Shown here piece by piece: positions 32,571 to 46,171 of a stretch of 64,000 nt of DNA. The notes beneath the pieces are model-generated. The model had not been told where the DNA came from. It saw only the letters and a list, made by a program, of their open reading frames with translations, and did no database searches. Numbering within the stretch: the stretch's first letter is position 1; each line of letters opens with the position of its first letter. This DNA is from Candidatus Doudnabacteria bacterium (GTDB taxonomy: Bacteria > Patescibacteriota > Doudnabacteria > UBA920): contig CAWINB010000001.1 in assembly GCA_963837465.1 (NCBI GenBank), positions 297,036 to 361,035 of the forward strand, written 5' to 3'. The position numbers and the translations under genes were made by a program.

Positions 32571-34808
32571 CTATCTGTCAAAATTCCTTCTCGGGGGTCT
32601 GGAGCCGCTGTGGCCGCCGGAAGATGGACGGCGGGGAGGACCGTCGAAGCCGCGGTCATTGGCCGAGGCGAGTTGCTCGGGGGTTGGGGCCGAGGCAAAA
32701 GGTTTGTGGGTTAGGTTAATGCGGCCTTGGTCGTCTATTTCACTGACCTGGACTTTTAAAGTGTCGCCAATATGGACTACATCTTCCACTTTGTTGACGC
32801 GGTAGTTGGCCAGTTGGGAAATGTGGACCAGGCCGTCTTTGCCGGGCAGGACTTCCACAAACGCGCCAAAATCCATAATGCGCACGACTTTGCCTTCGTA
32901 AATTTCACCGGGCTCAACTTCGCGCACAATATCCTGAATCCACTTCACGGCCTTGGCCGAACTTTCGGCATCGGTGGAAGTAACCATCACCAAGCCGTCG
33001 TCTTCTATATCTATTTTCACGCCAGGACATTTGGCTATAATTTCATTGATAATTTTGCCGCCGCTGCCAATAACTTCGCGGATTTTATCCGGCTTAATCT
33101 TAAAGCTGGTAATGCGCGGCGCGTACGGGGAGAGTTCATGGCGCGGCGCGGCCAGGGTTTCTGTCATTTTGGAAAGGATGTGGACGCGCGCCGGTTTGGC
33201 CTGCTGCAGAGCTTTGTCCAAAATATCCGCGCTCAAACCTTTAACTTTCATGTCCAGCTGCAAAGCGGTAACGCCCTGGTCTGAACCGGTAACTTTAAAA
33301 TCCATATGGCCGTTAAAATCTTCTATACCGGCAATGTCGGTAAGCACTTTAAAGTTGGAAGGGTTGGTTTCATCCATAACCAAACCCATGGCGCAGCCGC
33401 CGATAATGTGTTTAATGGGAACTCCCGCGTCCATTAAAGCCAAAGTTGAGCCGCAGGTGGATGCCATGGAGGTGGAACCGTTGGACGAAAGCACTTCACT
33501 GACCAGGCGCATAGTGTAAGGAAAAGATTCCTGGTCGGGCAGCACCACTTCCACGGCGCGTTCGGCCAGCATGCCGTGGCCGATTTCGCGGCGGCCGGCG
33601 CCTCTTAAAGGCGCGACTTCGCCAACGGAATAGCCGGGCATATTGTAGTGGTGGATATAGCGCTTGGCGCGACCGTCAGCCGGGTCTTCCATGCCATCTA
33701 ACAACTGTTCGTCACCTTTACTGCCAAGAGTAACTGTAGTTAAAGCCTGGGTTTCGCCGCGGGTAAACAAAGCGCTGCCGTGGGTGCGCGGCAAAATGCC
33801 GACTTCGCAGGAAATAGGACGCGTCTCAGTAAGCGAACGTCCGTCTACCCGGCGTTCGTGCTCCAGAATCTGCTTCTGCTGGTATTTTTTTAAAACTTTA
33901 TCCACAGCCCCGGCCGCTTCCTTGGCAACATCCACGCCCTGAATTTCCCCCAACGCCAAAACCGCGGCGTCGGAAATTTCTTTGGTCAGAACGCTGACGT
34001 TTATATCGCGCTGGGCTTTTATCTTAACGTAAACCGCCGCTTCAATTTTATCGGCCGTTAAAAGTTCCTTGACTTTGGCCATAACGGCATCGTGCGGCTT
34101 TATAATTACAGGCTCGGCTTTGGGAATGTTGATTTGCTTGGCAAACTCAATTTGCGTTTTTACCAGAACATCCAGATATTGCTGGGCGAATTTTATGCCT
34201 TCCACGATTTCCGCTTCCGTAACCAGCATGGCGCCCATTTCAACCATAATAATGTGGTCGCCGGTGCCGCAGACGATTAAATCCATAGTGGATGCTACCT
34301 GCCGCTCGCGCGTGGGGTTTACCACATATTGTCCGTCTATTTTCCCCACCCGCACGCCGGCAACCGGGCCGTCGTAGGGAATTCTGGAAATGGCAAGGGC
34401 CATGGAAGCCGCGGTGACGGATAAAATGTCCGGCTCGTTGACGCCGTCGTAAGAAAGGATGGTGGCGATAATCTGCACGTCGTTGCGCATGCCGTCGGGA
34501 AACATGGGCCGAAGCGTGCGGTCTATAACCCGTCCTTTTAAGACGGCATCATCGGTAGCGCGGCCTTCGCGCTTGACCCAGCGCGAGCCTTTTATTTTTC
34601 CGGCCGCGTAGAGTTTTTCTTCGTAATCAACCAGCAGCGGGAAATAATCTATGTTGCTTCTCACGCCTTTGCTCATCATGGCCGTGGCCAGAACCACGGT
34701 ATCGCCCACGCGCGCCAAAACCGCGCCGTCGGCCTGCCCGGCCAGCTTGCCGGTCTCAAACACAAAATCGGCTTCGCCTATTTTGCACGAAATCTTTTTA
34801 CTTTCCAT
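32571..34808 (-). CDS. pnp: Polyribonucleotide nucleotidyltransferase (PNPase)
   Basis: Two RNase PH domains, KH, S1, RG-rich tail; 745 aa. Confidence 0.95.
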
Positions 34809-34896: not shown

Positions 34897-35295
34897 TTAA
34901 TTATTACGTTTTTCCAAAACTTCCTTAATTTTAGCTAATATATCGTCCGGTGTAAAGTAGGCTTTGACCATGTATTCGTCGGCCCTAAGGGACTGCGTCC
35001 TTAAAATATCCTTGTTGCTCCAAAGATTGCTCAGGACAATAACCGGCAGGTCGGAAATTTTTTTGTCCGGATTATCGCGGATTTTTTCCAAAACTTCGAA
35101 ACCGTCCACTTCGGGCATCATTAAGTCCAGTAAAATTATGTCCGGCAGCTCCTGGAACACCATTTCCAGGCCCTGTTTGCCGTCCGGGGCATGGCGGACG
35201 ACAAAACCGGCGGCTTGCAGCTTATGCGCCACAATATCGGCCATAGCCGCGTCATCCTCCATAATAATTACATTTTTGTTTGTTTGTTTAAGCAT
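34897..35295 (-). CDS. Single-domain response regulator (CheY-like receiver)
   Basis: ...IIMEDD...DIILLDLMMPEVDGFEVLEKIR...; the phospho-acceptor Asp is the first D of LLDLMMP. Confidence 0.8.
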   Translation of the reverse strand: MLKQTNKNVIIMEDDAAMADIVAHKLQAAGFVVRHAPDGKQGLEMVFQELPDIILLDLMMPEVDGFEVLEKIRDNPDKKISDLPVIVLSNLWSNKDILRTQSLRADEYMVKAYFTPDDILAKIKEVLEKRNN

Positions 35296-35423
35296 TATTT
35301 TTAACTAACCAGCCAATATTATAGCATAAATTGGTAAAATATGGAAAATGTGATATAATTCTGGCTACAATAAGAAAAAATTAAAATTACTTGCGGAAAT
35401 TAAAATTAACATAAAAAATCAAA

Positions 35424-37994
35424 GTGGGAGAAGTAACTAGTTTTGCCAAAAATTTAGCGGAATTTGATAATCATAAAGAAGTTATCCGCCTGGAAAATGA
35501 AGGCTTGGGCGTTGTCGGATTTATCGCCATCCACACCCTTAAAAATTCTTATCCTTCTTTGGGCGCGACCAGGGTCTGGAATTATAAAACGGAAACCGAG
35601 GCGCTTAGTGACGCTTTGAGGCTTTCGCGGCTGATGTCCAACAAATCCCTTTACGCGGACTTGCCTTACGGAGGAGCAAAAGCGGCTCTAATGGTTTCCA
35701 AAGACAACCCTCCCGACCGCGAAGAACTTTTTTCCTGGTACGCGGGTGAGATAAATAAATTAGACGGGAGGTTTATTACCGGTTCCGATGTGGGAATTCA
35801 GGAACAAGACGTGGTTTTAATGAGCGGCCTGAGCAAATTTGTTATAGGAGGCAATGTCCCCGCCGGATACTATACCGCTCTTGGCGTGTTAAATGGCATT
35901 GAAACCGCCCTGGAAATTATTTACGGTTCGCCGGAAATTTCCGGAAAAACTTTCGCGGTGCAGGGTCTGGGAAAAACGGGACTGGAATTAGTCAAGCTGC
36001 TTTACGGCAAAGGCGGAAAAATTACAGTCACGGACGCTGACTCTAAAAAAATTGCCCAGGTTCTGGAAATGTTTCCCGGCGTTTCGGCCGTGAATGTTTA
36101 CGGCATATACAGCCAGAAAGTTGATATCTTCTGTCCTTGCGCCCTCCACAACAGCATTGATTCCCTAAGCGCGCCGCTGTTGCGGTGCGCCGCCATTGTC
36201 GGCAGCGCGAACAATCAAATGGAAAGCCCTGAGGTTGAACTATTGGTGCGTAATCGGGGAATTTTATACGCCATAGACTACATTGTAAACAACGGCGGCT
36301 TTATTAGCGTGGTAGACCAATATCAAAACGGAACCCATGACGATGCCCGGATAAAACAAAAGCTGCTGATAGTAAAAAATAAATTAAAAAAAATATTAAC
36401 CGGGGAAGAGCCCAAACCAAGCCCCGCCGCGACGACCGATGGTTCCGGAGTTTCCGTGTCCGGCGATACCGCGTTGTTCCCAAAAAAAACCCTTCCTGGC
36501 GACATTGCGGAACTTATTGGTTCTTTTAAAACTCAAAAGGAAGCTGTTTGGATTGAGCGCGGGGAAAGGCAAGCGCTAAAATTATTCGGCGAAATGTCCA
36601 GGCGGGTACCGGCTTACCGGGATTTCCTTAAAAAAAACGGGGTGAACGCGGAAACTGTAAACAGCATCGACGATTTTAAACATCTGCCGCTGACCAATAA
36701 GGAAAATTACCTGCTTTCGTACCCGTTGGAAAGCTTATGCTGGGACGGCAAATTCAAAGGGCAAAAGTGGACCATCTCATCCACATCCGGCTCAACCGGC
36801 GAACCTTTTTATTTCCCCAGAACCGGTTTTCAGGATGAGCAATTCGGACTTACGGCCGGGGCCTGCTTGGTCGATTTTTTCGAAATTGACAAAAAAACCA
36901 CCCTTTTTCTGGATTGCTTTGCCTTAGGAGTCTGGATTGGAGGAGTATTTATGTACCAGGCAATAAAGTATTTAATTGACCAAGGACGTTATCCCCTTTC
37001 TGTTATTACCCCGGGCGCGGACAAAGCCGAAGCCATAAAAGCTATAAAAAATTTGGCGCCGAAATTCGACCAGATAATTATAGGCGGCTACGCTCCGTTG
37101 GTTAAAGATTTAATAGATGTGGGCGGGGCCCAGGGCCTAAGGTGGAACGATTACAGCGTAAAATATTTTTTCGCGGCCGAAGGCTTCACCGAAGGCTACC
37201 GCGACTATATTGTAAAAAACGGCGGGGCGAAAAATATTTTTACCGATACCATTAACCACTACGGCACAGCTGACTTGGGGACAATGGCGCACGAAACCCC
37301 GGTAAGCATTTTAATCAGGCGCCTGGCCGCGGCCGACCAAAATCTGGCCCAGGCTTTATTTTCCCAGACCCACAAACAACCCACTTTAACCCAGTACATT
37401 CCGGAGCTTTATTATTTTGAACAGGCGGACAACCGGGTAGTCTGCTCATCTTCCGGGGGAATGCCGTTAATAAGGTATGATTTAAAAGACCGCGGCGGGG
37501 TTAAAAAACTGGAGCAAATTAAGCAAATTCTTAAAGAGCGAAATATTGACATCGAGCGGGAAATAAAAAAATCCGGTTTGGAAAAATTTTTATGGCAATT
37601 GCCTTTTGTCTATCTTTTTGAAAGGGATGATCTTACCGCCAGCATCTACAGCGTAAACATTTATCCCCAAAGCATCCGCAAAGTTCTGGAAAAGCGGGAA
37701 TTTGAAAAATTTTTGACAGGTAAATTCAGTATGCTGGTGGACTATGACCAGGGACAGAACCAGTTCCTGCAAATTAACCTGGAGTTGAAGAGCAATGTTG
37801 ATTCCGGGGAAGGTCTGGAAAAAAACCTTCTTGGCTCCGTTGTGGATCAGCTGCTTTTGGAAAATTCGGAGTGGAGGGATTTTTACGCCGACCAGGGCAT
37901 ACGCCATAAAATAATACCCCAATTGCTGTTTTGGCCCTATCAGGACCCTAAATATTTTAAGCCGGGCGCGAAACAAAAATGGGTGAAAAAATAA
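35424..37994 (+). CDS. Fusion protein: Glu/Leu/Phe/Val-type amino-acid dehydrogenase (N-terminal ~330 aa) plus PaaK/F390-synthetase-like adenylate-forming enzyme (C-terminal ~500 aa)
   Basis: N-terminal LPYGGAKAAL (dehydrogenase lysine motif) and Rossmann VQGLGKTG; C-terminal PaaK-family TSGSTGEP P-loop with the characteristic N-terminal VPAYRDFL...DFKHLPLTNKENY; GTG start. Confidence 0.7.
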   Translation: MGEVTSFAKNLAEFDNHKEVIRLENEGLGVVGFIAIHTLKNSYPSLGATRVWNYKTETEALSDALRLSRLMSNKSLYADLPYGGAKAALMVSKDNPPDREELFSWYAGEINKLDGRFITGSDVGIQEQDVVLMSGLSKFVIGGNVPAGYYTALGVLNGIETALEIIYGSPEISGKTFAVQGLGKTGLELVKLLYGKGGKITVTDADSKKIAQVLEMFPGVSAVNVYGIYSQKVDIFCPCALHNSIDSLSAPLLRCAAIVGSANNQMESPEVELLVRNRGILYAIDYIVNNGGFISVVDQYQNGTHDDARIKQKLLIVKNKLKKILTGEEPKPSPAATTDGSGVSVSGDTALFPKKTLPGDIAELIGSFKTQKEAVWIERGERQALKLFGEMSRRVPAYRDFLKKNGVNAETVNSIDDFKHLPLTNKENYLLSYPLESLCWDGKFKGQKWTISSTSGSTGEPFYFPRTGFQDEQFGLTAGACLVDFFEIDKKTTLFLDCFALGVWIGGVFMYQAIKYLIDQGRYPLSVITPGADKAEAIKAIKNLAPKFDQIIIGGYAPLVKDLIDVGGAQGLRWNDYSVKYFFAAEGFTEGYRDYIVKNGGAKNIFTDTINHYGTADLGTMAHETPVSILIRRLAAADQNLAQALFSQTHKQPTLTQYIPELYYFEQADNRVVCSSSGGMPLIRYDLKDRGGVKKLEQIKQILKERNIDIEREIKKSGLEKFLWQLPFVYLFERDDLTASIYSVNIYPQSIRKVLEKREFEKFLTGKFSMLVDYDQGQNQFLQINLELKSNVDSGEGLEKNLLGSVVDQLLLENSEWRDFYADQGIRHKIIPQLLFWPYQDPKYFKPGAKQKWVKK

Positions 37995-39145
37995 CAACTA
38001 TGCGAGAAACTTTCAACAGCCAATCTTGGCAACCTGTAAAAAAAACTTTTGAAGAAACAAGCGACTTGATAAAAAACGAGCCCGGTGTTTTTGTGACCGA
38101 CCAGTATAAAAAAAATTTGGAAGAACTTTTTTTGCTTCGCAACCCCAAGTACCGGTTCAACAAAAACTACGCGGAGGATTTTAAAAAGTTCGCGGGGCGG
38201 CAATTTGGAGATGAGCCGGATAAGGCCGGAACCTGGTTTTACTATCCCTGGTCAAAGCGTTTAGTCCGCTTTTTGCCTGATGACACGCACCAGGAACTGC
38301 GCACCGGCAGGAACCGCAACTTAATCACCCAGGAGGAGCAAAAAAACTACTACAACTCAAAAATTGCCGTTTTGGGTATGAGCGTTGGCAGCCATGTGGC
38401 CGCTACAATCGCGATGATTGGCGGTTCAAAAAATATGAAGCTGGCGGATCCGGACAGTTATTCCGGGGACAACCTCAACAGAGTGCGCACGGGGTTTGGG
38501 GATGTCGGTTTAAAAAAAGCAGTGGTCGTCGCCAGAAAATTATTTGAAGTTGACCCCTACGCCAACCACAGTATTTACACGGAAGGGCTTAATGAAAACA
38601 ACGCGGAAGAAATTCTCGAGCACAGCGAAATTATAATAGAGGAAATGGACAATCTCTACTGGAAACTTAAAATCCGGGAACTGGCGCGCGCCAGGGGAAT
38701 TCCCGTAATAATGGGTACCGACAACGGGGACGGTATGATAGTTGATATTGAACGCTTTGACCTTGATAAATCTTATCCCATCCTCCATGGCAGTATCGGA
38801 GATTTAACCGCGGAAAAATGCAAACAGGTTGCTCCGGAAGACCTGCCGGCAGTTTACGCCAAAGTCGCGGGCGCCGAACTGGCTGTTCCCCGGATGCTGG
38901 AATCGGTCGCCCAAGTCGGCAAGACGCTTTATTCCTGGCCCCAGCTGGGCACGGCGGCCAACCTTTGCGGCACAGTCGTGGCCTATCTGACGCGGCGGAT
39001 AATATTAAAGTCTCCCAATATTAAATCGGGGCGCTATGAAGTAAATTTGGACTCCATTTTTGAATCGGACTATAATTCCCCCCAAACAGCCCGGACTCGC
39101 GAGGAACAAAAAAACAATTTTTTAAAGGAAATCGGTTTTAAATAA
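37979..39145 (+). CDS. E1-like (ThiF/MoeB/MccB-family) adenylyltransferase with ~110-aa N-terminal extension
   Basis: IAVLGMSVGSHVAATIAMIGG...LADPDSYSGDNLNR (Rossmann plus ThiF motif); the N-terminal extension resembles a peptide-clamp or RRE-type add-on. Confidence 0.65.
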   Translation: MGEKITTMRETFNSQSWQPVKKTFEETSDLIKNEPGVFVTDQYKKNLEELFLLRNPKYRFNKNYAEDFKKFAGRQFGDEPDKAGTWFYYPWSKRLVRFLPDDTHQELRTGRNRNLITQEEQKNYYNSKIAVLGMSVGSHVAATIAMIGGSKNMKLADPDSYSGDNLNRVRTGFGDVGLKKAVVVARKLFEVDPYANHSIYTEGLNENNAEEILEHSEIIIEEMDNLYWKLKIRELARARGIPVIMGTDNGDGMIVDIERFDLDKSYPILHGSIGDLTAEKCKQVAPEDLPAVYAKVAGAELAVPRMLESVAQVGKTLYSWPQLGTAANLCGTVVAYLTRRIILKSPNIKSGRYEVNLDSIFESDYNSPQTARTREEQKNNFLKEIGFK

Positions 39146-39151
39146 AAAGTT

Positions 39152-40174
39152 ATGAAACAAAATTATCAGGCGTGGGAAATTAATCCCGGCGACTTCCAGA
39201 AACAAAAAACCATTACGGACCAATTGTGGTTTTTGGCCGGCTTTGCGGTGCTGGCCCCGTCCGGGCACAACAGCCAACCGTGGCAATTTGACGCGCGCGA
39301 TAACATAATAGATATCCGCGCGGATATGTCCCGGGCTCTGCCGGCCAGCGACCCCAATTGCCGCCAGCTTTATATCAGCCTTGGTTGCGCCATGGAAAAT
39401 TTGTTGATTGCCGCGGAAGGTTATCGGTTTCACTATGATATAGCTTATTTCCCCAAAGATGGGGTTGCCGCCAGTATAACTTTTTCAGGAAGCGGCGAGC
39501 AGGGGGTTATTGAACCCAAAAGCGATATAATTGCCGTGACAAAACGCCATACCAACCGCAATCCCTATACCACTAAAATGCCCGAGCAAACTTTTTTACA
39601 AAAAATAAAAAGCCTGGGAACCGGCAATGTACAGATAACTCTGGTCAGCCAACAAACACAGAGAGAAAAAATTTCCGACATTGTGAGCGAAGCTTTAATT
39701 ACGACTATGGACAATAAAAGTTTCCGTATGGAGCTTTCGCGTTATCTTAAGCCAAATAACACCAACTCCCCCATTGGTATGACCGGAGCAGGCTTTTTAA
39801 TGCCGACCGCGGTTTCTTTTATCGCGCCCGTGCTGATAAAATTTGTAAATGTCAATAAATTAAGTAAAAAAGAAGATGTCGCTTTGCTTAAAGAACATAC
39901 GCCTGTTTTTGGTGTTATTTCCACCTTGGCGGACGAACCAAAAGCCTGGCTAAAAGCAGGCCAACTGTACGAACGCGTTGCTGTTGAGGCGGAAAAAGGA
40001 AATATCAAAACCCATCCTTTGGCCGCGGCTATTGAAACCGGAAAATACTGCGGGCAATTACAAAATGCTTTGGAAATTCCTTCCCGCCCCCAGGTTTTTT
40101 TTAGATTGGGATATACCGATAAACTTGTTCCATATGCCCCAAGATTACCAATCAGTAAATGCAGGGTTATATGA
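39152..40174 (+). CDS. Tandem nitroreductase-fold FMN oxidoreductase (SagB/McbC/Acg-like), 340 aa
   Basis: LAPSGHNSQPWQF nitroreductase signature in the N-terminal half; second degenerate half. Confidence 0.6.
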   Translation: MKQNYQAWEINPGDFQKQKTITDQLWFLAGFAVLAPSGHNSQPWQFDARDNIIDIRADMSRALPASDPNCRQLYISLGCAMENLLIAAEGYRFHYDIAYFPKDGVAASITFSGSGEQGVIEPKSDIIAVTKRHTNRNPYTTKMPEQTFLQKIKSLGTGNVQITLVSQQTQREKISDIVSEALITTMDNKSFRMELSRYLKPNNTNSPIGMTGAGFLMPTAVSFIAPVLIKFVNVNKLSKKEDVALLKEHTPVFGVISTLADEPKAWLKAGQLYERVAVEAEKGNIKTHPLAAAIETGKYCGQLQNALEIPSRPQVFFRLGYTDKLVPYAPRLPISKCRVI

Positions 40175-41040
40175 ATAAAGAGGATAATTTAGCCAAATCG
40201 CTTGGGCTGCCCGTACACATTGGGCAAATGCCTATTAACGGCCATACTATAAATTACTGCGTTGCCGGAAAAGGGCCGCCCATCTTACTTATTCACGGTG
40301 CCAATTTCGGCTGGGGAGTTTGGTATCCCAATATCGCCGAATTAGCCAAGCGCTTTACTGTTTACGCCATAGATTTGCCCGGCGCGGGACGCTCAACCCG
40401 AATTGACTATGCCAAAATGGATCCGGAAAAAGATTTATTAGTTGTTGTGGAAAAATTTGTTGATAATTTAGAGCTTCAAAATTTTGATATAATAGGCTGC
40501 TCAATCGGCGGTTGGATAGCTTTACAGCTGGCATTAAGGAAACCTGACAGGGTTAATAGAATAATAATCGAAAATGGAGTCGGGTTTGCCGATTTTATGG
40601 GTATTTCCGATAAAATAATCGGCTTTTACCCTTTGGCAAAATTAGTTTCCAAAACTCTGATAAACCCGGCAAACAAAAAAAGGGTGGAAAAATTTTTGCG
40701 CGGAACTTTTTATTATAAGAACCTGTCCTTATCGAAAGAATTCCTCGAATATTTTTTGGAAACAATGGAAACCTCTCACGGGCTTCTGCTGATTAGCCGT
40801 TTAACTTCACTGCATAGCCAATTAAATCTAGAAAAAAAACTTCCTATTATTACTCACAAAACTTTAGTCATTTGGGGGAGAGACGATAAAATTATGCCTT
40901 TAAAAAAAAATGCGCGTAATTTTAAATTACTGTCCAAAGCGACAATCAAGATAATCAGCAATACGGGCCACACCCCTTCGTTGGAAAATCCTCAAGAATT
41001 TAACAGGCTTGTTAATGATTTTTTAGTTAATTATGAATAG
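40159..41040 (+). CDS. Alpha/beta-fold hydrolase
   Basis: PILLIHGANFGWGVW... nucleophile elbow GCSIGGW; 293 aa. Confidence 0.7.
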   Translation: MQGYMNKEDNLAKSLGLPVHIGQMPINGHTINYCVAGKGPPILLIHGANFGWGVWYPNIAELAKRFTVYAIDLPGAGRSTRIDYAKMDPEKDLLVVVEKFVDNLELQNFDIIGCSIGGWIALQLALRKPDRVNRIIIENGVGFADFMGISDKIIGFYPLAKLVSKTLINPANKKRVEKFLRGTFYYKNLSLSKEFLEYFLETMETSHGLLLISRLTSLHSQLNLEKKLPIITHKTLVIWGRDDKIMPLKKNARNFKLLSKATIKIISNTGHTPSLENPQEFNRLVNDFLVNYE

Positions 41041-42688
41041 CATTATCTCAAACTTTACCCAACTCCTGCTCATTATAGTATTGGTTATCAATATCCTATT
41101 GGCTTTTATCGTGTACAGAAGCAACAGGCATAGCGCCACCAATATTATTTTTATACTTCTTAGTATTGTTATTTCAATATGGCTGGTAATTATAAATGAA
41201 GCCGCGATACTATCATCCCCATTAATAATTTTGGTTTATACCAGGTTTGCCGTATTTTTTGCGGTACCTTTAAGTGTCTTATTTTTCCTTCTCGCCCATA
41301 CGCTCCCCAGCCCCACGCTATTATTAAGCAAAAAACGTTTACGATGGTTGCTGATTGGCACTCTTTTAATGATGGCATTTACCTTGTCGCCTTACGTTTT
41401 TAAAGCCGTAGAAATACAGGGCCAAAACATAAAAAGTATCCCTGGAGCAGGAATACCTTTCTTCGCCATTTTTACAAGCTTTTTCAGTTTGGCTGCTATT
41501 TATGTCCTGGTAAAAAAAGTTAAAAATTCCACTGGCGAAGTCAAACAACAAACGGCATTAATGATGCGGGGCATCCTGTTAATGCTGGGCCTGATTATTA
41601 CCACAATAATGCTTCCGGTTATTTTCTTTCAGAATCAGGCATTTATTCCTTTATCACCTGCCTATGTACTTATTTTTCTAGGAATGACAGCTTATGCCGT
41701 TGTTAAAAATCATCTATTCAACCTAAAGGTCATTGCTACTGAGGCATTCACCTTGGTTTTATTGACCGTTCTGTTCTCACAGATGATTATTGTCGCCACA
41801 ATCGGACAAAAAATTCTGGATTTTTTTGTTTTCATTATCACCGCTATTTTCGCCGGATTACTTATCCAGAGCGTCAAGCGTGAAATACAGCAGCGTGAAC
41901 AGTTGGAAATCTTGACCGGGCAATTGGAGGATGCCAATTACAAGCTTAAAAATCTGGACCAGGCCAGGGCCGAGTTTATTACCATTGCTTCGCATCAGTT
42001 GCGCACGCCTCCGGCTACCATTAAGTGGTATCTGGCTTCCATTTTGGGTGGCGATTACGGAAAGGTCCCGGCAAAAATACTGGAGCAATTGATAAAAACC
42101 GAAAACACCAACAACCACCAGATTTCCCTTATTGAAGATATGCTGAACGTTTCGCGCATTGAACGGGGCAAAATGGAATTTTTATTTGAACCGGTTAACG
42201 TGGAAGAACTGGCGCGTTTTTCCTACGAACAACTTTTGCCCATTGCCGGGGACAAAAAACTTAAACTGAGCTATCAGCCGCCGGCAAAACCGCTGCCGGA
42301 AATTATGGCCGACAAAGAAAAACTCCGGCAGGTTATGAATAATTTAATAGACAACGCCCTGAAATACACCAGAAAAGGCACCGTGGACGTTAGCCTGTTT
42401 TTAGAAGGCGATGAAATAAAATTCCAGGTCAAAGACAGCGGCAAGGGCATAAGCAAACAAGACGCCGACTCTATTTTCCAAAAATACAGCCGCGGCAAGG
42501 AATCGGTCAAGCAAAGCGCCGGCCTTGGCCTTGGGCTTTACGTGGCCAAAATTATTATTGACCAGCATAAAGGAAAAATTTGGGCCGAAAGCCGGGGGGA
42601 AGGCCAGGGTTCCATATTCGCTTTCAGCCTGCCTGTTAACAGCGGGCTTAAACAAACCACGCTGGTAGATTTGTCAAAAACGAATTAA
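41033..42688 (+). CDS. Membrane sensor histidine kinase
   Basis: About 7 N-terminal transmembrane helices; HisKA ASHQLRTPPATI; HATPase_c N/G boxes (LIDNALKYT, GLGLGLYVAK). Confidence 0.85.
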   Translation: MNSIISNFTQLLLIIVLVINILLAFIVYRSNRHSATNIIFILLSIVISIWLVIINEAAILSSPLIILVYTRFAVFFAVPLSVLFFLLAHTLPSPTLLLSKKRLRWLLIGTLLMMAFTLSPYVFKAVEIQGQNIKSIPGAGIPFFAIFTSFFSLAAIYVLVKKVKNSTGEVKQQTALMMRGILLMLGLIITTIMLPVIFFQNQAFIPLSPAYVLIFLGMTAYAVVKNHLFNLKVIATEAFTLVLLTVLFSQMIIVATIGQKILDFFVFIITAIFAGLLIQSVKREIQQREQLEILTGQLEDANYKLKNLDQARAEFITIASHQLRTPPATIKWYLASILGGDYGKVPAKILEQLIKTENTNNHQISLIEDMLNVSRIERGKMEFLFEPVNVEELARFSYEQLLPIAGDKKLKLSYQPPAKPLPEIMADKEKLRQVMNNLIDNALKYTRKGTVDVSLFLEGDEIKFQVKDSGKGISKQDADSIFQKYSRGKESVKQSAGLGLGLYVAKIIIDQHKGKIWAESRGEGQGSIFAFSLPVNSGLKQTTLVDLSKTN

Positions 42689-42693
42689 TACTC

Positions 42694-42730
42694 AAAAAAC
42701 ACCCTGGCTTGATTCAAGGGTGTTTTTGTT
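42694..42730. terminator. Bidirectional Rho-independent terminator
   Basis: aaaaacaccctggcttgattcaagggtgtttttgtt; T-runs on both strands. Confidence 0.65.
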
Positions 42731-42757: not shown

Positions 42758-43165
42758 TTATTTTTGCCCGGGCTTTATGCTTCCCAAAATTTCTTCTTCA
42801 AAATGGAGCAAAAACTGGATTGGATCCGGAGTGCTGCCGAATAAAATATGTTCGACGCTGTTGCGCTGGCCGCGGTTTTGGGCGCTGCCCACGCCTTTTT
42901 TCTGGAACCAGTCTTCCCAGGCCTTACTGAATTTTTTATAGCCTTCGCTGTGCTCGCCGCCGTATTTTTTATAAATTTGCCGGTACTTGGTTTCGTCGCA
43001 AATGTTGATAAAATCGCTTTTTTGTTCCAAGGTTAAAAAACCATTTTTTTGCAAAGAGTGTTTTATGGTCTGAATCTCTTTATTTACGTAGACAGCCTGA
43101 CAAATTTCCTTGCCTAATTGCGTCCACTCTTTATCAAATTCGTCAAAATTGGAATTATTAGGCAT
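42758..43165 (-). CDS. Hypothetical protein (135 aa)
   Basis: ORF only. Confidence 0.4.
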   Translation of the reverse strand: MPNNSNFDEFDKEWTQLGKEICQAVYVNKEIQTIKHSLQKNGFLTLEQKSDFINICDETKYRQIYKKYGGEHSEGYKKFSKAWEDWFQKKGVGSAQNRGQRNSVEHILFGSTPDPIQFLLHFEEEILGSIKPGQK

Positions 43166-43174
43166 TAAGAGATG

Positions 43175-43447
43175 CTATTCGGTAATTTTAAGCTTAAGCT
43201 TTTCTGCCAGCTTTTCGTAACGCTTCTGGTCTTCGCTCTTTAGATAGCGCAGCAGGCGGCGGCGGTTGCCGACCATCTTAAGCAAGCCGCGGCGGCTGTG
43301 GTTGTCTTTGCGGTGGATTTTTAAGTGCTCGCTGACCTGTTCGATTTCCCTGGTCAAAATGGCAATCTGAACCTCCGGACTGCCGGTATCGTCTTTATGC
43401 GTCTGAAACTTTTTAATTATATTGTTCTTCTCTTTGGGAGTAAGCAT
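43175..43447 (-). CDS. rpsO: 30S ribosomal protein S15
   Basis: [35 protein letters not shown]...[17 protein letters not shown]. Confidence 0.95.
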
Positions 43448-43624: not shown

Positions 43625-46171
43625 TTAGTAGCGTGTATTGCTTGCCAACTTCTCCTGCATAGTCTTTAAATCACTTTGCAGTTGTTGCCAACGTTGATAA
43701 ACTTGGGCTTGCGGTTCTGTCAGCTGTTGATCGCGCAAGACCTGTAGCTCTGCCCGTAAATTTTCTAAAAATTGGTCGACGTTTTGGCTTTTTGACATTA
43801 TTTCCAATTGCCGCGAGTCAAACCGCAGACCGTTTTTGACTTTTTCGGCAAGCAAAGTTGCCAATTCCCCGACTCTATCCAAGTCCGCTTTTGCTTGGTC
43901 TTGTTTTTGAACTTTAGCATCCCAAGCATTTAAGTCCATTTCCATAGCGGCCACATCTTTACGGGCCTGGGCTATTTTTCCAGTTAAGTCAACTCTGATT
44001 TTCCTGCTTTCAAAATCGCTTATTTTTTTATTTAAAGCATCGCGCCGTTGTATTAAATCGCTTCTTGAGAGATACTTTTGTTTAAAACCCTCTATTGGCT
44101 GTTCGCCGCTGTCTCTTTGGGGTTGATAGCCCTCTATGGCACGGGTGGCGTTTGTATAATTTTCCCGGGCCATCGCATCTTCAATATAAATTTGGCTGGA
44201 ATTTGTACCGGCGCTGTCGTAAATCCTGATTGTCGCGGCGTGATTGGCAACGCGAGCCAAACTTCTTTCGATATCGCTCATACTGCCAAAACTGCGGGCC
44301 ACTTCATTATTGGCCTTAACCTGTCGGGCTTGCCGGAGCAAGTCTCGTGTCCGGGGTCCGTTTTCCAAACTACGCAAGTCGAGTTTGGCCCAGCCAGCGT
44401 CCATTCCCACACCAACTTTTTCCAAAACTTGTTGGGTTTTTGTCTGAGCATCCATTACCGCTCGGTTAATAATCCCTCTGACATTGCTTAAATGACCGGC
44501 TTTGGCAAAAACCTGGTAAACAGATCTTGGCATTGTCAGGTATTGATTATCTATGTAAGAAGGTTCCAAATGCCGCTGCCGCATTTCCGCCGGGATATGG
44601 GCATTAATCTGGCCAATAGCGACATAGTTTCGACTACCTGACAAAAAAGCTTTTTTATCTGGAACCTCTTCTAAAGCCTGATAAAAAGCATTGAGCAGCG
44701 CCTGCCACGCTTCCAGCTGCTGCTTAACGTAGCCAGGCTGGATTATGTCTGTCTTTATTGGTTGGCTTTCGATCCCCCTATCTGAATAAGAAATTTTTTC
44801 CATCCCAAAAGCTGTGACTCCGCCCCAACTATTTTCCACGCCTTGCGAAATAACGTCAAACTTGCCGACTATGCCAGTATTATCCAATGACTGATGGGCT
44901 CCGCGGTTCGCGAACATATCGCGGGCACTTGCCACACCCATTTCCCGCCCCACATTATCTAAAAGGTCATTCAAATTTCGGCTAAACAGGGGAGGACCCG
45001 CTTGCTGCGAATACTGATCTTGAAAATTTTCAGTCCACTTTTTATCAGTTTCATGAATTTTATCTATAACTCCACTGAGTTGCGATCTTAGCTTTCGCTC
45101 CAAATCTTCCTCGGCTTTTTTTGCCGCTTTTACCTGGTTGCGACCGGGTTCAAAAACCGTATCAAAATACCGGATTTGATCTTTTACTTCCTGTAAATTC
45201 ACAACTCCAAGCCTGGCAGCTTCCCTTTCTTCGTATTCGCCGCTTATCTTATTTCCCAAAGCTTCCAAAAACGACTTTTTTACTTCGGCTCGTCCAATAA
45301 CTTTTTCGCCTTCCAAAACATTGTGGGACAAAAAATCCACACGCCCCAATGAAGCGAAATTTATAACTTCATTTTTGTAAGAACGCCATAAATGTTCTGT
45401 ATCCTGACTCACAAGCTTTTTAGCTGCCGCCTGCCTTTTGCCTTCGGTGGAATTGGGAAAAAGCTCTTCGTACTGTTTACGAAAAGCCGCCTGTCTAGCT
45501 TCCAAAGCGGAAATTAAAGTATCAAAGGTTATTGCCCGCCTGCCACTTGGAGTTTCAGGAATATCCGCCCCCGCTCTGGCGGCAACGGCGGCATCCGCCT
45601 TAGTCCTGGGTCCACCGTGGTCAAGGTTGTGCCGTTTTGGGACGCGAGGCTGTTCTTGTCCGGGCTCGCCGCTGGGATGGGCTTTTAAAAATTCCAAAGC
45701 CTGATGCTTGGACCCTAAACCTTTTTCTGTTTGAGGATTCAGCTCTGCGGCGCTTTCGGCCATTCCCTTTTCCGCCTCCAAGTAAGCCTGGGCTTCTTCA
45801 CCTTGGGGAAGCTTCGCGACCAGACTTTCTACGGAACTAATACCCTGCTCACTTAAAAATTGTTCAGGGTCTAAGCCGACATCTCTTAAGATACGCTTAA
45901 AAGCGGAATCCGGACTATTTAGTTGTTCTTTCAGAATTCTTTCATGGTCAGCAAAGCTGGTTTTGTGTCCGCGGCGTTTTTGCAGGATTCGTTTTTTTGC
46001 TTCGCGTACTTCCCGTAACCCTTCTACAATTTCCCCTACCTTTATGATGCTCGATTTTAGCTCGTCAATCCTTTGGTCTGCCTGTTCCTGAACAGACCTT
46101 TCTTTTTCCTCTGTAGCAACATTGGCGCGTTCCCGGGCCATCGCGGCTAAACGTTGTTCTATTGAACCCAT
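43625..46171 (-). CDS. Large coiled-coil-rich hypothetical protein (848 aa)
   Basis: Long Glu/Lys/Arg-rich heptad-like segments; no enzymatic motif recognised. Confidence 0.5.
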   Translation of the reverse strand: MGSIEQRLAAMARERANVATEEKERSVQEQADQRIDELKSSIIKVGEIVEGLREVREAKKRILQKRRGHKTSFADHERILKEQLNSPDSAFKRILRDVGLDPEQFLSEQGISSVESLVAKLPQGEEAQAYLEAEKGMAESAAELNPQTEKGLGSKHQALEFLKAHPSGEPGQEQPRVPKRHNLDHGGPRTKADAAVAARAGADIPETPSGRRAITFDTLISALEARQAAFRKQYEELFPNSTEGKRQAAAKKLVSQDTEHLWRSYKNEVINFASLGRVDFLSHNVLEGEKVIGRAEVKKSFLEALGNKISGEYEEREAARLGVVNLQEVKDQIRYFDTVFEPGRNQVKAAKKAEEDLERKLRSQLSGVIDKIHETDKKWTENFQDQYSQQAGPPLFSRNLNDLLDNVGREMGVASARDMFANRGAHQSLDNTGIVGKFDVISQGVENSWGGVTAFGMEKISYSDRGIESQPIKTDIIQPGYVKQQLEAWQALLNAFYQALEEVPDKKAFLSGSRNYVAIGQINAHIPAEMRQRHLEPSYIDNQYLTMPRSVYQVFAKAGHLSNVRGIINRAVMDAQTKTQQVLEKVGVGMDAGWAKLDLRSLENGPRTRDLLRQARQVKANNEVARSFGSMSDIERSLARVANHAATIRIYDSAGTNSSQIYIEDAMARENYTNATRAIEGYQPQRDSGEQPIEGFKQKYLSRSDLIQRRDALNKKISDFESRKIRVDLTGKIAQARKDVAAMEMDLNAWDAKVQKQDQAKADLDRVGELATLLAEKVKNGLRFDSRQLEIMSKSQNVDQFLENLRAELQVLRDQQLTEPQAQVYQRWQQLQSDLKTMQEKLASNTRY

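What the first reader, a model, noticed from the sequence alone, without database searches (positions are those of the whole stretch)
37979..41040. MccB/ThiF-like E1 enzyme, tandem nitroreductase-fold oxidoreductase and alpha/beta hydrolase: candidate peptide or small-molecule modification cassette
The E1-like protein has the ThiF Rossmann core (GMSVGSH...GG...LADPDSYSGDNLNR) and a ~110-aa N-terminal extension like the substrate-clamp domains of MccB and TOMM docking proteins. The next gene is a 340-aa double nitroreductase-fold protein (SGHNSQPWQF) resembling SagB/McbC-type azoline dehydrogenases or Acg-family proteins, followed by an alpha/beta hydrolase and a sensor kinase. With the upstream dehydrogenase-adenylase fusion, the operon holds two ATP-dependent carboxylate activators, an FMN oxidoreductase and a hydrolase. 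This fits a microcin-C-like peptidyl-adenylate or azole-like post-translational pathway, or a pathway that makes an amino-acid-derived signal. No precursor peptide was identified.
Basis: inference. Interest (0 to 1): 0.75.

Follow-up and report, generated by a model that had tools for sequence, protein, structure and literature searches.

The report
Oxazolone-synthetase-like operon with its own sensor kinase
The E1-like enzyme and the flavin oxidase are a split version of the enzyme pair that makes oxazolone lipids in Mycobacterium tuberculosis, here set in an operon conserved across ultra-small (CPR) bacteria, where an amino-acid dehydrogenase and a PaaK-type ligase replace the usual acyltransferase and a 7-TM sensor kinase is always attached; it is probably a small-molecule pathway, perhaps for a signal, and not a peptide-modification pathway.

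Summary
They form one tightly packed + strand operon (35424-42688): an ELFV-dehydrogenase/PaaK-like ligase fusion, a ThiF/E1 protein, an Acg-family flavin oxidase (FDO), an alpha/beta hydrolase and a HisKA_7TM histidine kinase, with a divergent receiver-only response regulator.

The MccB/TOMM (RiPP) reading fails every test I could run:
- There were no SagB, ocin-ThiF or MccB model hits.
- No YcaO gene is present.
- No small ORF is conserved, and intergenic gaps have a median of 2-8 bp.
- The N-terminal extension is shared with Rv1355c/TrzS, not with MccB.

The E1 is 34% identical (E 8e-56) to Rv1355c-family proteins. This family includes TrzS, a ThiF-FDO fusion that cyclises and desaturates N-acyl-tryptophan to an oxazolone. 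A CPR relative in which E1 and FDO are fused passes that family's curated cut-off.

Among 45 related loci with full flanks, the ligase is present in 100%, the FDO in 98%, the 7-TM kinase in 93% and the dehydrogenase in 73%. An aminotransferase takes the dehydrogenase's slot in six loci that lack it. The hydrolase is lineage-specific. The N-acyl-amino-acid synthase found in all characterised oxazolone systems is absent.

Verdict: a new variant of the oxazolone-synthetase kind. Its product is unknown and may be a signal.

The parts
34897..35295 (-). Receiver-only (CheY-like) response regulator, 132 aa, divergent from the operon
   Evidence: Response_reg PF00072, E 2e-21, with no output domain. 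A response regulator lies within 9 kb in 49% of full-flank related loci and is the only recurrent flanking family.
35296..35423 (.). 128-bp, 21% GC divergent promoter region. It holds an extended -10 sigma-70-like site at 35331-35359 on the + strand.
   Evidence: This is a consensus match only; function was not shown.
35424..36428 (+). N-terminal half of the 856-aa fusion: an ELFV-family amino-acid dehydrogenase of the Leu/Trp/Phe type
   Evidence: Pfam ELFV_dehydrog_N and ELFV_dehydrog both hit. The best NCBIfam hit is Trp dehydrogenase ScyB at 218 bits, below its 600-bit cut-off. Against PDB, LeuDH 3vpx scores 1e-53, TrpDH 5b37 5e-52 and PheDH 2e-32. The gene is separate in all other loci seen and is present in 73% of them.
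36459..37994 (+). C-terminal half of the fusion: a PaaK-family adenylate-forming ligase (~510 aa) of a distinct CPR subfamily. All ANL motifs are conserved.
37979..39145 (+). ThiF/E1-like adenylating enzyme with a conserved ~110-aa N-terminal extension; the predicted ATP-dependent cyclase
   Evidence: The N-half of NF005901 (Rv1355c family) hits at 301 bits, E 2e-89. Identity to a PGAP-named Rv1355c family protein is 34% over 358 aa, E 8e-56. D157, D159, R168 and D224 are invariant. The AF2 model has pLDDT 88.
39152..40174 (+). Acg-family flavin-dependent oxidase (FDO; monomeric double nitroreductase fold); the predicted desaturase
   Evidence: NF047509 hits at 222 bits against a cut-off of 199, and the C-half of NF005901 at 66 bits. 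The protein aligns with 2YMV over its full length, E 4e-11. An FDO is adjacent to the E1 in 98% of loci and fused to it in L035.
40159..41040 (+). Alpha/beta hydrolase with a Ser-Asp-His triad (GCSIGG); a lineage-specific accessory gene
   Evidence: Abhydrolase_1, E 1e-27. It resembles HsaD/BphD at ~100 bits, below their cut-offs. Among the related loci it occurs only in L012 and L089.
41033..42688 (+). Membrane histidine kinase with a 7-TM sensor (HisKA_7TM), a HisKA domain and an HATPase_c domain
   Evidence: Pfam hits. The kinase is present in 93% of full-flank loci, nearly always directly after the enzymes. Its sensor region is only 22-32% identical between loci.
42694..42727 (.). Hairpin flanked by an A-run and a T-run: a bidirectional terminator-like site that ends the operon
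   Evidence: Sequence read. The scan lists the - strand version at 42719-42702.

Best explanation
This is a dedicated small-molecule pathway, not a peptide or protein modification system.

Inferred order, which follows both the gene order and the observed gene fusions:
1. The ELFV dehydrogenase interconverts a hydrophobic or aromatic L-amino acid and its 2-oxo acid. In some relatives a class I/II aminotransferase does this instead.
2. The PaaK-type ligase adenylates a carboxylic acid, most simply that 2-oxo acid. It condenses it with an amino acid to give an N-acyl-amino-acid-type intermediate. [quoted passage not shown]
3. The ThiF-like enzyme adenylates the free carboxylate of that intermediate. 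The amide oxygen then closes a 5(4H)-oxazolone (azlactone) ring.
4. The Acg-type flavin oxidase desaturates the C-alpha/C-beta bond, giving an alkylidene-oxazolone.
5. In this lineage the alpha/beta hydrolase tailors or opens the reactive ring. Other lineages carry methyltransferases in this role.
6. The co-transcribed 7-TM histidine kinase and its receiver-only response regulator either sense the product, as an autoinducer-receptor pair would, or control the operon.

Shown here: the homologies, the conservation of catalytic residues, the operon structure, the co-occurrence and the fusions. Inferred: the substrates, the amide-forming role of the ligase, the oxazolone product and the role of the kinase.
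For: E1 relationship:
- The E1 is closest to the Rv1355c/TrzS family: NF005901 N-half 301 bits and 34% identity, E 8e-56, to a PGAP-annotated member, including the N-terminal extension and the family-specific G(M/L)SVG(S)H and TL(Y/S)(S/T)WPQL motifs.
- The only plasmid-database hits are Rv1355c-family proteins and actinomycete ThiF proteins.
- TrzS, TyzB/TyzC and OxzB have been shown experimentally to cyclise and desaturate N-acyl amino acids to oxazolones (PMC12856293, PMC10404671, bioRxiv 10.1101/2020.06.11.147165).
- The CPR E1-FDO fusion in L035 scores 534 bits on NF005901, above the 476-bit cut-off.
- About half of the 150 best E1 relatives worldwide are ~730-780-aa fusions.

Catalytic residues:
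- The adenylation residues D157, D159, R168 and D224 are invariant.
- The E1 has only two Cys, so it lacks the Zn tetrad of MoeB/ThiF.

Co-occurrence and fusions:
- Ligase 45/45, FDO 44/45, kinase 42/45 and dehydrogenase 33/45.
- Fusions link consecutive steps: DH-ligase in the window, seen in two independent assemblies; ligase-E1 in L018 and P0487; E1-FDO in L035.
- The aminotransferase occurs only in loci without the dehydrogenase, and in the same slot.

Gene-cluster character:
- Tailoring genes vary between loci (methyltransferases, hydrolase), as is typical of biosynthetic clusters.

Ligase:
- It has the PaaK fold. Its closest structural neighbours include ClxA (9s3l) and the PaaK-like ligase 6siw. 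From my own knowledge, these are CoA-independent condensing enzymes of the benzoxazole pathways.
Against: - No chemistry was tested.
- The N-acyl-amino-acid synthase that defines all characterised oxazolone systems is absent from the loci. It could be encoded elsewhere in the genome.
- No PaaK-family enzyme has been shown to N-acylate an amino acid with a 2-oxo acid.
- The window's FDO is of the Acg/Rv3131 type: 222 bits on NF047509 but only 66 bits on the TrzS C-half. Most CPR cassettes carry a TrzS-like FDO instead. Grigg et al. (PMC10404671) thought that their FDO-B group, which contains Acg and Rv3131, is not involved in oxazolone synthesis.
- FDOs are O2-dependent oxidases, whereas many CPR bacteria live in anoxic settings.
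- The best structural match of the E1 is AclA (9egb), whose function I could not retrieve.
- Nothing shows that the kinase binds the product.
Confidence: 0.55

Rival explanations
1. Same enzymes, different heterocycle or product. In this reading the E1 activates the carboxylate of the ligase product for a nucleophile other than the amide oxygen, for example an amine formed by the reversible dehydrogenase or aminotransferase. That would give a diketopiperazine, pyrazinone or imide, which the nitroreductase-fold oxidase then desaturates. The oxidase would work like the cyclic-dipeptide oxidase of albonoursin, or as in an indolmycin-like oxazolinone assembly.
For: - ThiF-like enzymes make imides, thiolactones, phosphoramidates and oxazolones from the same acyl-adenylate logic (PMC12596934).
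- De Rond et al. list diketopiperazine desaturation among nitroreductase-family reactions.
- The upstream module (dehydrogenase or aminotransferase, plus PaaK-like ligase and sometimes methyltransferases) recalls indolmycin biosynthesis. There, Trp goes to indolepyruvate, is methylated, and is coupled by the ATP-dependent Ind3 to form an oxazolinone (PMC8246080).
- The window FDO is not of the TrzS subtype.
Against: - The E1 is specifically closest to the oxazolone-forming clade.
- No Ind2/Ind4/Ind5-type genes are present.
- ELFV dehydrogenases act on free amino acids.
- Nothing in the loci points to a second amine donor.
Confidence: 0.22
2. RiPP pathway. [quoted passage not shown]
For: - The E1 has an N-terminal extension.
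- Very short ORFs (<25 aa) outside the operon were not searched exhaustively.
Against: - There are no hits to TIGR03605, TIGR03693, TIGR03882 or MccB models.
- No YcaO gene appears in any locus.
- The extension aligns with TrzS-family proteins, which act on small molecules. The MccB match covers only residues 116-225.
- Intergenic gaps within the cassette have a median of 2-8 bp.
- No small-ORF family recurs in or around 83 loci.
- The FDO belongs to the Acg family, not the SagB family.
Confidence: 0.04
3. Housekeeping E1. In this reading it is a MoeB/ThiF/TcdA-type enzyme for sulfur-carrier activation or tRNA ct6A formation that happens to sit beside unrelated genes.
For: - Some public annotations call homologues 'molybdopterin/thiamine biosynthesis adenylyltransferase' or 'tRNA threonylcarbamoyladenosine dehydratase'.
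- TcdA is among the best solved sequence relatives, at E 7e-12.
Against: - Scores on the ThiF, MoeB and TcdA equivalog models are 23-57 bits against cut-offs of 152-376.
- No ThiS/MoaD-like ORF is present.
- The E1 has no Zn-binding Cys tetrad.
- Linkage to the ligase, FDO and kinase is near-obligate, and fusions to both neighbours occur.
Confidence: 0.02
4. A catabolic or energy module for aromatic or branched-chain amino acids: amino acid to 2-oxo acid to acyl-CoA or acid, regulated by the two-component system.
For: - A dehydrogenase or aminotransferase followed by a PaaK-type ligase resembles fermentative aryl-acid pathways.
- The closest structure, BT_0428, is a putative acyl-CoA ligase.
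Against: - No 2-oxoacid:ferredoxin oxidoreductase is present in the loci.
- This reading does not explain the invariant E1 and FDO, nor the ligase-E1 and E1-FDO fusions.
- Variable methyltransferase and hydrolase tailoring genes are typical of biosynthesis.
Confidence: 0.05

Closest known systems
TrzA/TrzS (Rv1356c/Rv1355c) N-acyl-tryptazolone pathway of Mycobacterium tuberculosis (PMC12856293)
   Same: The ThiF-like cyclase carries the same N-terminal extension and the same motifs (34% identity, E 8e-56). It is partnered with an Acg-like flavin oxidase. In some CPR relatives the two are fused exactly as in TrzS, and that fusion passes the NF005901 cut-off. The adenylation Asp is conserved.
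   Different: - In the window the pair is split.
- The window's oxidase is nearer to the Acg/Rv3131 model than to the TrzS C-domain.
- There is no TrzA-type N-acyltransferase. An amino-acid dehydrogenase or aminotransferase plus a PaaK-family ligase sits upstream instead.
- A 7-TM histidine kinase and response regulator are part of the unit.
- The host is a CPR bacterium, not an actinomycete.
TyzA/TyzC/TyzB (Rv2336-Rv2338c) tyrazolone pathway (PMC10404671) and OxzA/OxzB of Pseudoalteromonas rubra (bioRxiv 10.1101/2020.06.11.147165)
   Same: TyzB and TyzC show that a split, stand-alone ThiF plus a stand-alone ~340-370-aa FDO can perform cyclisation and desaturation. The genes are adjacent and in operon-like arrangement.
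   Different: Both systems depend on an acyl-CoA N-acyl-amino-acid synthase (TyzA or OxzA), and neither has a kinase. TyzB (318 aa) is shorter than the CPR E1.
NasY + ThiF + nitroreductase (+ methyltransferase) clusters for stieleriacines, kyonggic acids and thalassotalic acids (PMC12479983)
   Same: The ThiF/nitroreductase pair comes with variable methyltransferase tailoring. The products are N-acyl-dehydroamino acids, the ring-opened form of an oxazolone, which is what a hydrolase such as 40159-41040 could generate.
   Different: Those clusters have a NAS hallmark enzyme, which is absent here. They have no dehydrogenase, PaaK-like ligase or sensor kinase.
PaaK-family condensing ligases: the PaaK-like ligase 6siw (NatL2 type) and ClxA of the benzoxazole pathways, and Ind3 of indolmycin
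   Different: Sequence identity is only 18-21%. The CPR ligase is ~70 aa longer and forms its own subfamily, with no Pfam hit and 31 bits on the PaaK equivalog models. That NatL2, ClxA and Ind3 condense without CoA is from my own knowledge and was not tested here.
MccB (microcin C) and TOMM E1-like/SagB systems
   Same: They share the E1 Rossmann adenylation core, and the dehydrogenase likewise has an FMN nitroreductase-superfamily fold.
   Different: There are no model hits, no peptide-clamp homology, no YcaO gene and no precursor peptide. The oxidase belongs to the Acg family.

Membership tests
Oxazolone synthetase systems (OxzAB / TyzACB / TrzAS) | ThiF-like cyclase belonging to the TrzS/TyzB/OxzB clade | tested here: met
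   NF005901 N-half at 300.8 bits, E 1.9e-89, covering residues 23-377. BLASTP gives 34% identity, E 8e-56, to a PGAP-named Rv1355c family protein. The only plasmid hits are Rv1355c-family and actinomycete ThiF proteins.
Oxazolone synthetase systems (OxzAB / TyzACB / TrzAS) | Conserved adenylation-motif Asp (D217 of M. smegmatis TrzS, which is essential for cyclase activity) | tested here: met
   The motif EEMD(224)N aligns with EECD(202)S of the Mycolicibacterium homologue. D224 is invariant in 35 CPR sequences. Its equivalence to D217 is inferred from the motif, not from a direct alignment to M. smegmatis TrzS.
Oxazolone synthetase systems (OxzAB / TyzACB / TrzAS) | Flavin-dependent oxidase (Acg-like nitroreductase fold) adjacent to or fused with the ThiF | tested here: met
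   The two genes are 6 nt apart in the window. An FDO is present in 44 of 45 loci. It is fused to the E1 in L035, where the fusion scores 534 bits on NF005901, above the 476-bit cut-off.
Oxazolone synthetase systems (OxzAB / TyzACB / TrzAS) | The oxidase is of the FDO-A subtype (TrzS, OxzB, TyzC) | tested here: inconclusive
   The window FDO scores 222 bits on the Acg/Rv3131 model but only 66 bits on the TrzS C-half. The FDO of L001 scores 157 bits on TrzS and 196 bits on PRK14851. The cassettes carry two FDO subtypes. The published SSN classes could not be reproduced here.
Oxazolone synthetase systems (OxzAB / TyzACB / TrzAS) | Adjacent N-acyl-amino-acid synthase (OxzA, TyzA, TrzA or NasY) | tested here: not met
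   No acyltransferase appears among the Pfam-annotated neighbours. No recurrent flanking family other than response regulators was found in 83 loci. The neighbour of the Mycolicibacterium Rv1355c gene has no homologue in the CPR loci. Only ~4-10 kb on each side was examined.
Oxazolone synthetase systems (OxzAB / TyzACB / TrzAS) | The product is a 4-alkylidene-5(4H)-oxazolone | not testable with these tools
   Requires expression and LC-MS/NMR.
NCBIfam NF005901 'Rv1355c family protein' (equivalog, cut-off 476 bits) | A single protein scores above the cut-off | tested here: not met
   The window E1 scores 300.8 bits and the window FDO 66.1 bits, because the genes are split. The fused CPR relative in L035 passes at 534 bits.
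Acg family FMN-binding oxidoreductase (NF047509) | Score above the curated cut-off and a full-length match to Acg | tested here: met
   222.3 bits against a cut-off of 199. The protein aligns with 2YMV over residues 31-335, E 3.9e-11.
MccB / microcin C-type | An N-terminal peptide-clamp domain homologous to that of MccB, and a short precursor gene | tested here: not met
   MccB matches only core residues 116-225, at E 1e-5. The extension is instead homologous to the TrzS family. There is no room for, and no conservation of, a small ORF. ORFs shorter than 25 aa outside the operon were not screened exhaustively.
TOMM (thiazole/oxazole-modified microcin) machinery | SagB-type dehydrogenase (TIGR03605), ocin-ThiF-like docking protein (TIGR03693/TIGR03882), YcaO cyclodehydratase and a precursor peptide | tested here: not met
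   None of these models hits at E<=0.01. No YcaO gene is present in the annotated loci. No precursor peptide was found.
MoeB / ThiF sulfur-carrier adenylyltransferases | Equivalog score, an adjacent MoaD/ThiS gene and a Zn-binding Cys tetrad | tested here: not met
   Scores are 23-57 bits against cut-offs of 152-376. No carrier ORF is present. The protein has only two Cys.
Phenylacetate-CoA ligase (PaaK) family | PaaK fold with the ANL adenylation motifs, and an equivalog score | tested here: inconclusive
Tryptophan dehydrogenase ScyB (NF035922) | Equivalog score | tested here: not met
   218 bits against a cut-off of 600. The domain is equally similar to LeuDH and TrpDH structures. Its specificity is unresolved.

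The most novel reading that the evidence does not exclude
The cassette is a self-contained chemical communication module of CPR/Patescibacteria. In this reading a four-enzyme synthase (dehydrogenase or aminotransferase, PaaK-type amide-forming ligase, ThiF cyclase, flavin desaturase) makes a reactive oxazolone-type molecule from two amino acids without acyl-CoA. The co-transcribed, fast-evolving 7-TM histidine kinase is its cognate receptor and signals through receiver-only regulators. That would be a new autoinducer class and the first native quorum- or host-sensing system described for these ultra-small episymbionts.
Probability: 0.2. Interest if true: 0.85.

Novelty: new variant of a known kind. 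Interest (0 to 1): 0.62.

Why it matters
ThiF/FDO oxazolone synthetases were discovered only in 2020-2025. [quoted passage not shown]

The same catalytic pair here sits in hundreds of CPR genomes of well under 1 Mb, which have lost most biosynthesis. Several features are new:
- The pair is tightly linked to a different, CoA-independent-looking front end.
- It is tightly linked to a dedicated membrane sensor kinase.
- Fusions join every consecutive pair of enzymes in one relative or another.

That an organism with so few genes keeps a ~7-kb cassette across many CPR classes argues for an important function. The kinase linkage makes a signalling role directly testable.

The finding also corrects database names for these proteins (MoeB/ThiF, TcdA, 'phenylacetate-CoA ligase', 'nitroreductase'). 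It extends the possible oxazolone association of FDOs to an Acg/Rv3131-like subtype.

Tried and rejected
- RiPP reading. I looked for SagB, ocin-ThiF and MccB models and for YcaO in neighbours. I also looked for conserved small ORFs inside the cassette (gap statistics) and around it (all-vs-all clustering of ORFs >=25 aa in 83 loci). Nothing was found.
- Defence-system reading. PADLOC gives only generic E1-core hits at ~1e-9 and nothing for the other proteins.
- Recent horizontal acquisition judged by composition. The cassette is 44.6% GC and the window 44.8% GC, so there is no signal.
- Source organism. The exact look-up of the window proteins returned no names. Assignment to CPR rests on the named homologues.
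- Function of AclA (PDB 9egb), the best structural match of the E1. It was not found in the paper library.
- The AlphaFold-database fold library was unavailable.
- TrpRS adjacency as a substrate or resistance clue. TrpRS is present in 12 loci in three arrangements. Other housekeeping genes recur in 9-10 loci, so I treat it only as a weak hint.
- Reciprocal test of how often this 7-TM kinase family occurs without the cassette. I did not run it, because the sensor region is too poorly conserved for the pattern-based locus search.

Full report
**What is there.** The region holds five co-directional, overlapping or abutting + strand genes inside an otherwise - strand neighbourhood:
- 35424-37994 (856 aa)
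- 37979-39145 (388 aa)
- 39152-40174 (340 aa)
- 40159-41040 (293 aa)
- 41033-42688 (551 aa)

A 128-bp, 21% GC spacer with an extended -10 promoter-like site precedes the first gene. A hairpin flanked by A- and T-runs follows the last. A receiver-only response regulator (34897-35295) is transcribed divergently. The block lies between pnp (32571-34808) and rpsO (43175-43447).

**Domain assignments.**
- The 856-aa protein is an ELFV amino-acid dehydrogenase fused to a PaaK-like adenylate-forming enzyme.
- The 388-aa protein is a ThiF-family E1.
- The 340-aa protein passes the curated cut-off of the Acg family of FMN oxidoreductases (222 bits against 199). It aligns over its full length with the M. 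smegmatis Acg structure.
- The 293-aa protein is a Ser-Asp-His alpha/beta hydrolase.
- The 551-aa protein is a HisKA_7TM histidine kinase.

**What the E1/oxidase pair is.** The decisive result is. The E1 matches the N-terminal half (profile positions 22-354 of 722) of NCBIfam NF005901, 'Rv1355c family protein', at 301 bits. The oxidase matches the C-terminal half (positions 369-652). So the two genes are a split version of a known fusion.

Rv1355c is TrzS. Kleetz et al. [quoted passage not shown] It converts N-acyl-tryptophan into an N-acyl-tryptazolone by ATP-dependent cyclisation followed by O2-dependent desaturation. The same chemistry is carried out by the split pair TyzB/TyzC in M. tuberculosis (PMC10404671) and by OxzB in Pseudoalteromonas (bioRxiv 10.1101/2020.06.11.147165).

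Direct comparisons support this placement:
- The window E1 is 34% identical over 358 residues (E 8e-56) to a PGAP-annotated Rv1355c-family protein from a Mycolicibacterium plasmid. The alignment starts at residue 19. It covers the unusual G(M/L)SVG(S)H glycine-rich motif, the EExD(N/S) adenylation motif and the TL..WPQL motif.
- In the plasmid collection the only hits are Rv1355c-family proteins and actinomycete ThiF proteins.
- Against 1.84 billion cluster representatives, 922 clusters match at E<=1e-30. About half of the best 150 are ~730-780-aa proteins with the E1 at the N-terminus, and their matches begin at query residues ~25-40.
- A fused CPR relative (L035, 743 aa), which sits in the same cassette, scores 534 bits on NF005901, above the 476-bit cut-off.

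The '~110-aa extension' is thus a family trait of the small-molecule oxazolone cyclases. It is not a MccB-type clamp.

- No SagB (TIGR03605), ocin-ThiF (TIGR03693, TIGR03882) or MccB model hits either protein at E<=0.01.
- A profile of 35 E1 homologues finds TcdA at 7e-12 and ThiF/MoeB at ~1e-7. It finds MccB only at 1e-5, and only over the Rossmann core, residues 116-225.
- In 83 related loci the gaps between cassette genes have medians of 2-8 bp.
- Clustering all non-core ORFs of >=25 aa in and around the cassettes yields only response regulators as a recurrent family. There is no precursor peptide, no ThiS/MoaD-like protein and no YcaO.
- PADLOC finds nothing beyond generic E1 similarity.

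The MccB/TOMM reading and the MoeB/ThiF housekeeping reading are therefore both rejected.

**Conservation and anatomy of the cassette.** The E1 has 651 homologues at E<=1e-10. The best 120 are all ~375-390 aa and 51-74% identical. Those with names come from Parcubacteria/Paceibacterota, Vogelbacteria, Doudnabacteria and other CPR groups.

A scan of one genome per species returned 80 loci, almost all from Patescibacteria MAGs. I called ORFs in all loci and searched them with the window proteins. Among the 45 loci with at least 6 kb on both sides:
- the PaaK-like ligase is present in 45;
- the FDO in 44;
- the 7-TM kinase in 42;
- the dehydrogenase in 33;
- a response regulator in 22.

The hydrolase appears only in L012. 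It also appears in L089, the window's close relative found separately.

The usual order is dehydrogenase, ligase, E1, FDO, kinase.

Fusions link each consecutive pair:
- Dehydrogenase-ligase in the window. The same 856-aa protein occurs in a second, independent assembly.
- Ligase-E1 in L018, and in the 863-aa P0487.
- E1-FDO in L035.

Six distinct loci that lack the dehydrogenase carry a class I/II aminotransferase in or next to the same slot. No locus with the dehydrogenase does. This non-orthologous displacement indicates that the first step is amino acid/2-oxo acid interconversion.

Other variable inserts are SAM methyltransferases and small unknown proteins. This core-plus-tailoring pattern is typical of biosynthetic gene clusters.

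All ANL catalytic motifs are invariant, including the C-terminal GGK lysine. The family has at least 2001 members, and the best 120 are ~505-aa CPR proteins.

From my own knowledge, 6siw-type NatL2 and ClxA condense aromatic acids without CoA during benzoxazole assembly, and Ind3 of indolmycin is a PaaK-like ATP-dependent coupling enzyme. The indolmycin route itself is summarised in PMC8246080: Trp to indolepyruvate, methylation, then ATP-dependent coupling to an oxazolinone. These are precedents, not tests.

**Proposed mechanism.**
1. An amino acid is converted to its 2-oxo acid by the dehydrogenase or the aminotransferase.
2. The ligase adenylates an acid and acylates an amino acid.
3. The E1 adenylates the free carboxylate and closes the oxazolone ring.
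4. The FDO desaturates the ring substituent.
5. In this lineage the serine hydrolase may open or transfer the reactive azlactone. Ring-opened N-acyl-dehydrotyrosines are the products seen in planctomycetes with ThiF/nitroreductase pairs (PMC12479983).

Homology, motif conservation, linkage and fusions are shown. The substrates, the amide-forming role of the ligase and the product are inferred.

Dehydrogenase specificity is unresolved: LeuDH scores 1e-53, TrpDH 5e-52 and PheDH 2e-32. The ScyB model gives 218 bits against a 600-bit cut-off. Weak hints toward tryptophan are the TrzS relationship and a TrpRS gene next to the cassette in 12 loci, in three different arrangements.

**The kinase.** Its near-obligate position at the end of the operon suggests a dedicated sensor. 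So do its sensor region, which is far more divergent than the enzymes (22-32% against 50-74% identity), and the receiver-only regulators. It may be a receptor for the product, as in the LuxM/LuxN or CqsA/CqsS logic (my own knowledge). This is inference only. The kinase may equally regulate the operon in response to another cue.

**What does not fit.**
- The N-acyl-amino-acid synthase that accompanies every characterised system is missing.
- The window's FDO belongs to a minority subtype that is Acg/Rv3131-like (about 14 of the loci; 321 homologues). Most cassettes carry a TrzS-like FDO. Grigg et al. considered that their FDO-B group, which contains Acg and Rv3131, is not involved in oxazolone synthesis.
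- The function of AclA, the best structural match of the E1, could not be retrieved.

**Novelty and score.** Searches of the paper library for oxazolone together with CPR terms found nothing. The 2025 review of ThiF-like enzymes lists OxzB as the only one acting on a small molecule (PMC12596934). I rate this a new variant of a known kind: a known catalytic pair with a new front end, a new regulatory partner and a new phylogenetic home.

Interest is 0.62. A specialist would be moderately surprised that genome-reduced CPR bacteria widely conserve such a cassette. The kinase linkage gives a testable route to CPR signalling.

Noticed in passing
window 32571-34808 (pnp) and 43175-43447 (rpsO); also L089:15309-15671: The cassette, together with the response regulator and a 135-aa unknown gene, lies between rpsO and pnp. 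From my own knowledge these two genes usually form one operon in bacteria. An S15 gene lies near the cassette in 9 related loci. Other loci have quite different neighbours, so the cassette moves as a unit.
   Followed up: partly
window 39152-40174; compare L001:9131-10198 and L035:9947-12175: The cassettes carry two FDO subtypes. The window type (~331-340 aa) is Acg/Rv3131-like and passes NF047509; about 14 loci have it. The majority type (~350-356 aa) is closer to the TrzS/PRK14851 fusion domains. L041 carries both.
   Followed up: partly
L015, L046, L050, L053, L060, L062, L067, L071, L075 (downstream of the kinase); L026, L028, L063 (upstream): A tryptophanyl-tRNA synthetase gene lies on the same strand right next to the cassette in 12 loci. 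It occurs in three arrangements and involves two divergent TrpRS groups. It could be chance synteny, a substrate clue, or by analogy with indolmycin a resistance gene.
   Followed up: partly
L007 and L008 (contigs labelled Myxococcales / Polyangiaceae): These two loci have 60-62% GC, against a median of 43% for the other loci. Yet they carry a ligase-E1-FDO set whose E1 is 60% identical to the window's. This could be transfer outside CPR, a high-GC CPR lineage, or mis-binning. L008 lacks the kinase.
   Followed up: no
L087:6842-8616 and L088:6239-9123 (Streptomyces / Kitasatospora plasmids): Stand-alone or N-terminally extended ThiF proteins of the same clade (414-426 bits on NF005901) sit next to a GNAT-family protein or a ketoacyl-ACP synthase III rather than an FDO. 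These are further uncharacterised partner combinations for this cyclase family.
   Followed up: no
window 42758-43165 (- strand): This 135-aa ORF has no Pfam, NCBIfam or PADLOC hit. It recurs just downstream of the kinase on the opposite strand in 6 related loci, and as a 138-aa gene in L089.
   Followed up: no
window 47941-53247 (- strand), with 43625-46171 and 46354-47907: The first is a 1768-aa protein with HYR, Big_1, Big_5 and surface Ig-like repeats. Beside it lie an 848-aa protein with no family hit and a 517-aa protein with CHB_HEX_C_1/Fn3_assoc domains. The GC skew is locally positive, up to +0.17. It is probably a cell-surface or adhesion locus.
   Followed up: no
window 37979 versus 38000: There are two possible E1 starts. 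The 388-aa form overlaps the ligase stop by 16 nt. The 381-aa form, used in the NCBI/ENA record, starts 6 nt after it.
   Followed up: no
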